Virus genome (UHGV): UHGV-0347332
Reading direction: 5' to 3' (one strand)
DNA length: 27,668 nucleotides
Source: a virus
Notes under the pieces: generated by a model
What the model was told of the DNA's origin: nothing
Seen by the model: only the letters and a program-made list of their open reading frames with translations
Databases searched by the model: none
Shown here: positions 26,458 to 27,668 of the stretch, one piece after another
How the letters are laid out: every line of letters starts with the position of its first letter
How positions within the stretch are numbered: position 1 is the first letter of the stretch
Program-made: the position numbers and the translations under genes

Positions 26458-27141
26458 CTATCGCGTTACCCTCTTTAACTGCCGCTCCGCCCATGCCTCT
26501 TCAATGTCAAACCGAACCACCAACGTATCGTAAAAGCGTTTCACTGATTTTTTCCACGTATCAAGCGTGATAGCACTCGTCACTTTGCATATGGCATTAA
26601 ATGCCTCCGTTGATGGTAGTCTTTCACAGCCACGACCACCACAACGCTGGCAGTCTCTGATAACAGGCATACCACGTTTTACCGACTCTTCACGATGAAT
26701 GGCGACACCACGCCCACGGCAATCCTTACAGGCGGTGGAAACCTCACCCTTTCCGCCACACTCCGGACAGGCAACTTTTACCACTTCCTTGACTTTTTTC
26801 CATTCTTCCCAGTAAGACGAATACACACCTTTCGTACACTTTGCCCATACCGGCGGCTTACCATCCGGATACTGGACCTTGTTTGTAAAAACTACGCTTT
26901 CAATAAATTTTTCCCCATAGCAACAAGGGCACTGCTTTTTACTCGCTACGCTGCGGGCATAATCCTCAAAAGCGTACGAAGCCATAATGCGCATCACTAC
27001 CGGTTTTATTTCTGCCGGAAGTTTTCTCAACGCCGCCACACGATCGCACCGACTGAGTGCATAATCTGCCAGTAATTCTGTTGCCCGCGCCCTGTCATTC
27101 ATACTGATGCCCATTTTCCCCAGGAACGCAGAAAAACCCAT
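26458..27141 (-). CDS. Q: Late-gene antiterminator Q (lambda family)
   Basis: 227 aa; CxxC zinc-binding motifs and C-terminus …FYDTLVVRFDIEEAWAERQLKRVTR resemble lambda Q; followed by PR'. Confidence 0.85.
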   Translation of the reverse strand: MGFSAFLGKMGISMNDRARATELLADYALSRCDRVAALRKLPAEIKPVVMRIMASYAFEDYARSVASKKQCPCCYGEKFIESVVFTNKVQYPDGKPPVWAKCTKGVYSSYWEEWKKVKEVVKVACPECGGKGEVSTACKDCRGRGVAIHREESVKRGMPVIRDCQRCGGRGCERLPSTEAFNAICKVTSAITLDTWKKSVKRFYDTLVVRFDIEEAWAERQLKRVTR

Positions 27142-27144
27142 CTC

Positions 27145-27357
27145 ATGCCTGTTATCAGAGACTGCCAGCGTTGTGGTGGTCGTGGCTATGAAAGACTACC
27201 ATCAACGGAGGCATTTAATGCTATATGCGAGGTGACAAACCAGATAACACGCGCGTCATGGGAAAAAACAGTTAAGAAATTCTATGATGCGCTGGTGACC
27301 CGGTTTGATATTGAAGAAGCATGGGCTGAGCGGCAGTTAAAAAAGGTAACTAGGTAA
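27145..27357 (+). pseudogene. Truncated paralogous Q fragment (C-terminal 70 codons), head-to-head with the intact Q
   Basis: MPVIRDCQRCGGRGYERL…AWAERQLKKVTR matches Q residues 158-227 at roughly 85% protein identity; begins 3 bp from the intact Q start. Confidence 0.75.
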
Positions 27358-27362
27358 CAAGG

Positions 27363-27390
27363 TTGATTTTTCCGGAATCTGTGGTAAATT
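27363..27390 (+). promoter_or_regulatory. Second PR'-like promoter copy (-35 TTGATT, 16 bp, TGGTAAATT) downstream of the Q fragment
   Basis: Homologous to 26413-26452 on the opposite strand; pause element degenerate (AACAAT). Confidence 0.5.
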
Positions 27391-27439
27391 CGTCATAACA
27401 ATGGGCTTTTTATGCCTGACGTTAGAAGAGTTTCTACAA

Positions 27440-27461
27440 CCCGCCGCCGAGCGGGTTTTTT
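27440..27461 (+). terminator. Second tR'-like terminator copy (CCCGC/GCGGG stem followed by 6 T)
   Basis: Homologous to 26353-26376. Confidence 0.5.
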
Positions 27462-27500
27462 ATTGCGGAATTAATTACGGACCGTTATTATTCTGCTCCC

Positions 27501-27549
27501 GGCCCTTTAGCTCAGTGGTGAGAGCGAGCGACTCATAATCGCCAGGTCG
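27501..27549 (+). pseudogene. Truncated tRNA-Ile(CAU) copy: 5' 49 nt only
   Basis: Identical to the 5' part of the tRNA at 24708-24783 (and ~20 bp upstream of it) in inverse orientation; breaks after GCCAGGTCG. Confidence 0.75.
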
Positions 27550-27668
27550 ACTCCGGACAGGCAACTTTTACCACTTCCTTGACTTTTTTCCATTCTTCCC
27601 AGTAAGACGAATACACACCTTTCGTACACTTTGCCCATACCGGCGGCTTACCATCCGGATACTGGACC
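27550..27668. repeat. 119-bp perfect direct repeat of 26760-26878 (antisense of Q codons ~88-128), running to the window edge
   Basis: Base-for-base identity seen directly; starts exactly where the tRNA fragment breaks off. Confidence 0.9.

What the first reader, a model, noticed from the sequence alone, without database searches (positions are those of the whole stretch)
26760..27668. Head-to-head Q duplication, truncated tRNA-Ile copy and 119-bp perfect direct repeat at the right edge
Three bp upstream of the intact Q start, a diverged (~85%) copy of Q codons 158-227 is encoded on the opposite strand, followed by its own PR'-like promoter, a tR'-like terminator and the first 49 nt of a tRNA-Ile(CAU) copy. 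That copy breaks off abruptly and joins a 119-bp stretch identical to 26760-26878 (antisense of Q codons ~88-128). The intact Q therefore has no early region (nin, replication, immunity) upstream within the window. This is either a recombination scar between two lambdoid prophages, leaving a late-region-only remnant, or an assembly chimera at a repeat.
Basis: seen in the sequence. Interest (0 to 1): 0.6.

Follow-up and report, generated by a model that had tools for sequence, protein, structure and literature searches.

The report
Scrambled Q gene at contig end
The last 1 kb of this E. coli prophage contig re-uses one 880-bp stretch of a phage antiterminator (Q) locus three times in alternating orientation; this is most likely a sequencing or assembly chimera at a repeat, not a biological structure.

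Summary
The 119-nt perfect direct repeat, the inverted Q 3' fragment with its terminator, and 49 nt of tRNA-Ile are all at the stated coordinates. Two points are wrong. The "intact Q" is not intact: this Q family has 273 codons with a start overlapping rusA, and the window copy stops at codon 45/46. The "diverged copy" is not a diverged duplicate. It is 100% identical to the Q allele of a second lambdoid prophage that sits in the same ST131-type genomes.

Everything right of about 26628 matches that one locus (JJ1886 2.17 Mb) at 100%, in a zig-zag: reverse 3043→2526, forward 3001→3405, reverse 2911→2793. The two novel joins have 0–1 nt of microhomology. They are absent from 5,426 complete E. 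coli genomes and from three large contig collections.

A second join pair of the same style scrambles tail genes K/L at 4649–4775. It too is seen nowhere else. The 119-nt repeat ends on the window's last base, as expected where an assembly path re-enters used sequence.

Best reading: technical chimera at a repeat-bounded contig end (about 0.7). Rival: a real complex rearrangement (about 0.25). The only real inter-prophage recombination is a natural hybrid Q allele with its switch at 26628–26722.

The parts
26458..27145 (-). Hybrid Q antiterminator gene, 5'-truncated: codons 46-273 of a 273-codon gene plus stop. The longest ORF starts at internal Met47 (ATG at 27141).
   Evidence: PF03589 hit. 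273-codon reference genes that overlap rusA. Alignment ends at 27145. Codon arithmetic.
26628..26722 (.). 95-nt stretch identical in both parental Q alleles. This is the natural switch zone of the hybrid: to its left the window is 100% JJ1886 prophage-1 type (L001), to its right 100% prophage-2 type (L002).
   Evidence: Three-way alignment. The exact full-length hybrid protein P0001 is present in 15 public contigs.
26360..26375 (-). tR'-like terminator downstream of the main Q copy.
   Evidence: Terminator scan.
27144..27146 (.). Junction A. Reverse-strand Q' sequence ending at L002 2526 (codon 45/46) is joined to forward-strand Q' starting at L002 3001 (codon 204). 1 nt of overlap.
   Evidence: Absent from all collections.
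27145..27549 (+). Segment S2, 100% identical to L002 3001-3405: Q' codons 204-273 (27145-27357), the PR'/terminator region, and tRNA-Ile nt 1-49 (27501-27549).
   Evidence: Terminator at 27438-27457. Pfam hit.
27549..27550 (.). Junction B. tRNA-Ile nt 49 (L002 3405, forward) is joined to Q' codon 174 antisense (L002 2911, reverse). 0 nt of overlap.
   Evidence: Absent from all collections.
27550..27668 (-). Segment S3: second copy of Q' codons 135-174 (L002 2911→2793), identical to 26760-26878. It ends on the last base of the window.
26760..26878 (-). First copy of the 119-nt repeat, inside the hybrid Q gene.
4649..4775 (.). Second anomaly of the same style. A 127-nt piece spanning the 3' end of tail gene L and the 5' start of K is inverted, with about 330 nt of flanking sequence missing. 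Both genes are disrupted.
   Evidence: No complete genome spans it.
24708..24783 (-). Intact tRNA-Ile(CAU) of this prophage, the paralogue of the truncated copy. ARAGORN calls it tRNA-Met(cat); RefSeq annotates it as tRNA-Ile.
   Evidence: 97% inverted repeat with 27462-27549.

Best explanation
The right-hand about 520 nt of the window (27145-27668) is a technical chimera at the end of a repeat-bounded draft contig. It is not part of the prophage.

The contig faithfully follows a lambdoid prophage late region from gene J back to a natural hybrid Q gene. Inside Q, which is an inter-prophage repeat, the path leaves the true sequence at codon 45/46. It then zig-zags over the same 880-bp Q' locus: forward through the Q' 3' end, terminator and 49 nt of tRNA-Ile, then backward again into Q'. 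It stops as soon as it re-enters sequence already used, which leaves the 119-nt terminal repeat.

The novel joins most likely come from chimeric template molecules or reads, for example strand-displacement or whole-genome-amplification chimeras, or from a faulty extension or gap-filling step. The identity of the pieces, the position of the joins and their absence elsewhere are shown. The specific technical cause is inferred.
For: 1. All three pieces map at 100% to one 880-bp stretch of a single locus (L002 2526-3405), in alternating orientation and with overlapping re-use.
2. Joins A and B have 1 and 0 nt of shared sequence and link sites 475 and 494 nt apart in opposite sense.
3. Neither join occurs in IMG/VR, the GTDB species genomes or the JGI metagenomes, nor in any of 5,426 complete E. 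coli genomes, where every match stops at the join.
4. The same 27.7-kb contig has a second, independent pair of strand-inverting joins (0-3 nt microhomology, sites 176-409 nt apart). These scramble K/L at 4649-4775 and are also unique. Two such events in one contig point to a systematic process.
5. Both anomalies lie in genes that are multi-copy between prophages (median 3 places per genome). The window starts inside gpJ and ends inside Q, which is typical of a short-read contig bounded by repeats.
6. The 119-nt repeat ends on the window's last base. That is expected when a graph path re-enters a used vertex, and unlikely (about 0.4%) for an arbitrary cut.
7. The full-length hybrid Q exists elsewhere, while the truncated 227-aa form and every ORF crossing a junction are not on record.
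8. Proximal inverted joins at about one per 10-22 kb are the documented signature of MDA chimeras (PMC1855051).
Against: - No reads, coverage or assembler metadata are available, so the artefact is not demonstrated.
- A de Bruijn assembler cannot invent junction k-mers, so molecules or reads carrying the joins must have existed, and in more than one read if k was about 119.
- The test that S2 is a plain graph unitig failed: it starts 43 nt before the first mismatch to the paralogous copy but ends 65 nt after the last one.
- In MDA data 93.5% of proximal inverted chimeras show at least 2 nt of complementarity. Here only 1 of 4 joins does.
- 119 is not a default final k of the commonest isolate assembler (own knowledge).
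Confidence: 0.68

Rival explanations
1. This is a real in-vivo complex rearrangement of the duplication / inverted-insertion type. In the source strain, a 405-bp piece of the second prophage's Q'-PR'-tR'-tRNA-Ile region was copied in inverted orientation into the hybrid Q gene, flanked by a duplication of Q codons 46-174. The mechanism would be two template switches of a replication fork, or topoisomerase-mediated illegitimate joining. The left Q copy then lacks its first 45 codons and the right copy lacks codons 175-273. No functional antiterminator remains and the late operon is silent. The contig ends 119 nt into the duplicated segment only because the assembler cannot pass a repeat.
For: - A graph assembler needs reads that carry the joins.
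- The contig ending k nt into a true duplication is equally expected.
- The two prophages coexist, in inverted orientation, in related complete genomes such as JJ1886.
- Recombination between their Q genes does happen naturally: the hybrid allele.
- Prophage genes are under no selection, so K, L and Q disruptions are tolerated.
Against: - It needs two independent rare double-join events (Q end and K/L) in one 27.7-kb prophage, and neither is seen in hundreds of near-identical copies.
- The joins have 0-1 nt of homology, whereas RecA-independent template switching in E. coli normally uses microhomology (established knowledge).
- The joins connect non-homologous positions of homologous loci.
- All pieces are still 100% identical to their parents.
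Confidence: 0.24
2. This is a simple homologous recombination scar between two lambdoid prophages (a chromosomal inversion or deletion) that left a late-region-only remnant.
For: The Q gene is a hybrid of the two prophage alleles, with the switch in a 95-nt identical stretch. Inversions between inverted prophages are well known in E. coli (own knowledge).
Against: Homologous exchange gives colinear hybrids. It explains 26628-26722 but not joins A and B, which lack homology and flip strand between codon 46 and codon 204, and between tRNA nt 49 and codon 174. The early region is not shown to be absent; the window simply ends.
Confidence: 0.04
3. The window is a concatenation of separate small contigs or graph segments, for example a reference-ordered pseudomolecule without spacers. 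Joins A and B (and C and D) would then just be contig boundaries with arbitrary orientation.
For: Joins without homology. The pieces are of contig or read-like size (405, at least 119, and 127 nt). All pieces come from the same repeat-rich loci.
Against: A 127-nt piece is below the usual minimum contig length. No k-length overlaps are seen at the joins. S2's ends are not symmetric unitig boundaries.
Confidence: 0.04

Closest known systems
Lambdoid late-gene antiterminator module Q-PR'-tR' of the PF03589 (QuuQ / Qin-prophage type) family, followed by phage-borne tRNA genes (ileZ-type tRNA-Ile(CAU), tRNA-Arg)
   Same: Both Q pieces hit PF03589. Each is followed by a hairpin plus T-run terminator. 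The order Q - terminator - (methylase) - tRNA-Ile - tRNA-Arg - lysis genes matches the annotated prophages in JJ1886 and other complete genomes.
   Different: In the window the gene lacks codons 1-45 and the rusA overlap. The second copy is only codons 204-273, in inverted orientation.
Inverted chimeras made by strand-displacement amplification (MDA; Lasken & Stockwell 2007, PMC1855051)
   Same: All four novel joins invert the strand. They link sites less than 500 nt apart. They occur at about one per 7 kb, compared with one per 10-22 kb reported.
   Different: Only one of the four joins has at least 2 nt of complementarity, against 93.5% in the paper. It is unknown whether the sample was amplified.
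De Bruijn-graph loop or terminal k-mer overlap at a contig end
   Same: A perfect repeat of an internal segment ends exactly on the last base, and the contig is bounded by inter-prophage repeats at both ends.
   Different: The k value and the assembler are unknown. A pure graph effect cannot create the novel junction sequences. The S2 unitig test was not met.
Natural mosaic Q alleles from recombination between co-resident lambdoid prophages
   Same: The window's Q switches parent within a 95-nt identical stretch. A similar hybrid occurs in the complete genome UPEC-774U, and the exact protein occurs in 15 public contigs.
   Different: This explains only the hybrid gene. It does not explain the inverted fragment or the 119-nt repeat.

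Membership tests
Q antiterminator, Pfam PF03589 | Significant match to the PF03589 profile | tested here: met
   227-aa ORF: E = 2.5e-40. 70-aa ORF: E = 5.2e-22.
Q antiterminator, Pfam PF03589 | Complete gene (273 codons in this subfamily, start overlapping rusA) | tested here: not met
   Homology ends at codon 45/46 (window 27145) and no rusA follows.
Q antiterminator, Pfam PF03589 | Downstream late promoter plus terminator (PR'/tR') | tested here: inconclusive
   Terminators were found for both copies, but no promoter passes the generic scan (8 of 12 hexamer matches only).
Q antiterminator, Pfam PF03589 | Antitermination activity at qut | not testable with these tools
   Needs transcription assays.
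Assembly-graph loop / contig-end artefact | The terminal sequence repeats an internal segment perfectly and ends on the last base | tested here: met
   26760-26878 = 27550-27668, and the window length is 27668.
Assembly-graph loop / contig-end artefact | Repeat length equals the assembler's k | not testable with these tools
   Assembler and parameters are unknown.
Assembly-graph loop / contig-end artefact | The inserted piece is a unitig bounded k-1 nt from the nearest paralogue mismatches on both sides | tested here: not met
   43 nt on the left against 65 nt on the right.
Assembly-graph loop / contig-end artefact | Joins lack normal read and read-pair support | not testable with these tools
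   No reads are available.
MDA-type inverted chimera | Joined segments are in inverted orientation and less than 10 kb apart | tested here: met
   4 of 4 joins are inverted, 176-494 nt apart.
MDA-type inverted chimera | At least 2 nt of complementarity at most junctions | tested here: not met
   Overlaps are 1, 0, 3 and 0 nt, against 93.5% with at least 2 nt in PMC1855051.
MDA-type inverted chimera | The DNA was amplified by strand displacement | not testable with these tools
   Sample provenance is unknown.
Homologous inter-prophage recombination scar | Exchange point lies within sequence shared by both parents and the product is colinear | tested here: not met
   This holds for the hybrid switch at 26628-26722. 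It does not hold for joins A and B, which have 0-1 nt overlap, flip the strand and connect non-homologous codons.
Integrase-mediated insertion into a tRNA gene | The break in the tRNA is followed by an element that restores or duplicates the tRNA 3' part | tested here: not met
   After nt 49 the sequence is Q' antisense, with no tRNA 3' segment.

The most novel reading that the evidence does not exclude
The joins are real. A strain-specific double template-switch event inserted an inverted Q'-PR'-tR'-tRNA fragment from a co-resident prophage into the Q gene, with a 386-bp flanking duplication. A second such event hit K/L. If so, this prophage would record an unusual, microhomology-independent, strand-inverting rearrangement process in E. 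coli. It would leave a PR' promoter pointing antisense into the remaining Q 5' half and the early genes.
Probability: 0.22. Interest if true: 0.35.

Novelty: not a real feature. Interest (0 to 1): 0.1.

Why it matters
Mainly as a caution. Taken at face value, the window suggests a head-to-head Q duplication and a late-region-only prophage remnant. In fact the Q gene is cut at a chimeric join, and the sequence beyond it should not be annotated or used to infer prophage structure, Q function or tRNA content.

The same contig has a second scrambled site in K/L, so gene calls there are also unreliable.

If the joins were shown to be real, they would document two microhomology-free inverted rearrangements in one prophage. 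That would be a modest curiosity for prophage decay and would not constitute a new kind of system.

Tried and rejected
1. Exact junction patterns searched in viral, genome and metagenome contig collections: no hits.
2. Exact-product look-ups of seven truncated or junction-crossing ORFs to find the source contig or independent occurrences: none on record.
3. The 70-aa ORF look-up returned contigs that start at the same base as S2 (L006, L007). I first read this as a shared graph boundary. I rejected that as selection bias of an exact-product look-up, and no polymorphism exists at that base.
4. Hypothesis that S2 is a plain unitig: not supported.
5. The 1.5-kb difference from JJ1886 at 22810-22820 looked like a third anomaly. 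It is a common natural short DUF1737 allele.
6. JJ1886's own extra piece in gene K is an unrelated foreign insertion and does not explain the window's K/L inversion.
7. Restriction-ligation origin: GTCGAC spans join B and CATG lies at join A. Rejected because neither parent sequence carries the site.
8. tRNA-targeted integration at join B: rejected because no tRNA 3' part follows.

Full report
**What is in the sequence.**
- 26760-26878 and 27550-27668 are identical over 119 nt.
- 26345-26670 and 27145-27470 form an 82% inverted repeat.
- 24735-24822 and 27462-27549 form a 97% inverted repeat covering a tRNA leader and the 5' part of the tRNA.
- The minus-strand ORF 26458-27141 (227 aa) and the plus-strand ORF 27145-27357 (70 aa) both match Pfam PF03589, antitermination protein Q.
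- Terminator-like hairpins with T-runs follow both copies, at 26375-26360 (minus) and 27438-27457 (plus).
- No promoter passes the generic sigma-70 scan, so PR' is inferred from position only.
- The 70-codon copy is 80.8% identical at nt level and 57/70 at aa level to the 3' end of the neighbouring Q.

**Correction 1: Q is not intact.** In complete E. coli genomes this gene is 822 nt (273 codons) and its start overlaps rusA. Examples are JJ1886 at two loci and UPEC-774U. Base-level alignment shows that the window follows the reference gene only to 27145, which is codon 45/46. Beyond that the references continue into codons 45→1 and the window does not. The ATG at 27141 is internal Met47. In true numbering the inverted fragment is codons 204-273 and the 119-nt repeat is codons 135-174.

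**Correction 2: where the pieces come from.** The late region of the window is an ST131-type lambdoid prophage, 99.2-99.9% identical to JJ1886 at 1.45 Mb (locus L001/L014). The inverted fragment 27145-27549 is 100% identical to a different prophage in the same genomes, JJ1886 at 2.17 Mb (locus L002), and to more than 1,000 other records.

The window's own Q is a hybrid.
- 26340-26722 is 100% L001 type.
- 26628-27145 is 100% L002 type.
- The 95-nt overlap (26628-26722) is identical in both parents.

This hybrid is natural. A similar one occurs in a complete genome. The exact 273-aa protein, reconstructed by adding L002 codons 1-45, is present in 15 public contigs (P0001). The truncated 227-aa product is not on record.

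**The zig-zag.** In L002 coordinates the window runs as follows:
- reverse 3043→2526 (window 26628-27145);
- forward 3001→3405 (27145-27549);
- reverse 2911→2793 (27550-27668).

So one 880-bp stretch is used three times in alternating orientation, with overlapping re-use.
- Join A has 1 nt of overlap and links sites 475 nt apart.
- Join B has none and links sites 494 nt apart.

The tRNA copy stops after exactly 49 nt (L002 tRNA 3357-3432, match ends at 3405). What follows is Q antisense and does not resemble an integrated element.

**Are the joins found anywhere else?** No.
- Exact 30-36-nt patterns across each join give no hit in IMG/VR, the GTDB species genomes or the JGI metagenome contigs.
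- In 5,426 complete E. coli genomes, no place covers more than the intact part plus the repeat.
- 120-nt queries centred on each join align on one side only.
- GenBank phages do not contain it either.

**A second anomaly of the same kind.** Relative to strains 4/1-1 and JJ1886, window 4649-4775 is a 127-nt piece spanning the 3' end of tail gene L and the 5' start of K, placed in inverted orientation. About 330 nt of flanking sequence is missing, and both genes are disrupted. Its two joins also flip the strand. They link sites 409 and 176 nt apart and have 3 and 0 nt of overlap. No complete genome spans this arrangement.

Other differences from JJ1886 are ordinary:
- no ISEcp1-blaCTX-M-15 insertion in the tape-measure gene;
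- 324 nt fewer in the portal gene;
- a common short DUF1737 allele in place of the full esterase.

**Context of the window ends.** Base 1 lies inside gpJ and the last base lies inside Q. Both genes are multi-copy between prophages. K/L and Q each occur at a median of 3 places per genome. This is what a short-read contig bounded by repeats looks like. The 119-nt repeat ends on the very last base. That is expected if an assembly path stops after re-entering a used graph vertex. For an arbitrary cut it would be a coincidence of about 0.4%.

**Interpretation.** The best-supported reading is a technical chimera at a contig end (confidence about 0.68). The arguments are:
- four strand-inverting, short-range, essentially homology-free joins in 27.7 kb;
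- both join pairs in repeat genes;
- none seen elsewhere;
- all pieces 100% identical to their parents;
- a terminal repeat on the last base.

Proximal inverted joins at about one per 10-22 kb are the known signature of strand-displacement amplification chimeras (PMC1855051). Only one of the four joins here shows the at least 2 nt of complementarity that is typical there, so the exact technical cause stays open. A faulty extension or gap-fill step is another candidate. I could not show that S2 is a simple graph unitig.

A graph assembler cannot invent junction k-mers, so chimeric molecules or reads must have existed. This keeps the rival alive: a real in-vivo duplication / inverted-insertion rearrangement (about 0.24). 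That rival needs two independent rare double events in one prophage, with joins lacking the microhomology normally used by template switching in E. coli.

Simple homologous recombination between the prophages explains the hybrid Q allele but not joins A and B.

**Verdict.** The region beyond 27145 should be treated as unreliable, and so should the K/L segment. Read mapping, long reads or junction PCR on unamplified DNA would settle it.

Noticed in passing
window 4649-4775: A 127-nt piece (3' end of tail gene L plus 5' start of K) lies inverted, with about 330 nt of flanking sequence missing relative to strains 4/1-1 and JJ1886. It disrupts both genes. No complete E. coli genome has this arrangement.
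   Followed up: yes
window 26628-26722: The Q gene is a natural hybrid of two prophage alleles, with the switch inside a 95-nt identical stretch. The exact full-length 273-aa protein exists in 15 public contigs (KUU88642.1 and others).
   Followed up: yes
window 22810-23039: Where JJ1886 has a full SASA-family esterase gene, the window has the short 67-aa DUF1737 form (1.5 kb shorter). This is a widespread natural allele, also present in the second ST131 prophage.
   Followed up: yes
window 12411-12680: The portal-gene region is 324 nt shorter than in JJ1886 (753-aa against 861-aa ORF). The area carries diverged 162-nt repeats (76% identity). This could be natural copy-number variation or a collapsed repeat. 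Tandem Repeats Finder reports nothing at default score.
   Followed up: partly
window 6928-6932: The tape-measure gene is intact here (1080-aa ORF 5711-8953). In JJ1886 it is split by an ISEcp1-blaCTX-M-15 insertion.
   Followed up: partly
window 24833-26318: A DNA methyltransferase (PF01555, 349 aa) and a 94-aa ORF with no Pfam match sit between Q/tR' and the phage tRNA genes, as in related prophages. In the second prophage type, Q is followed directly by the tRNAs.
   Followed up: partly
window 24708-24783: ARAGORN calls this tRNA-Met(cat), while RefSeq annotates the identical gene as tRNA-Ile (CAU anticodon, ileZ type). An Rfam 'Plastid-ycf2' hit on the opposite strand is far below its gathering score and is spurious.
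   Followed up: no
L014 about 33780-33915 (JJ1886 gene K): JJ1886 carries an extra foreign piece of about 115-137 nt inside gene K. It has no match in the window or in strain 4/1-1, and it splits K into two pseudogene fragments. Its nature was not determined.
   Followed up: partly
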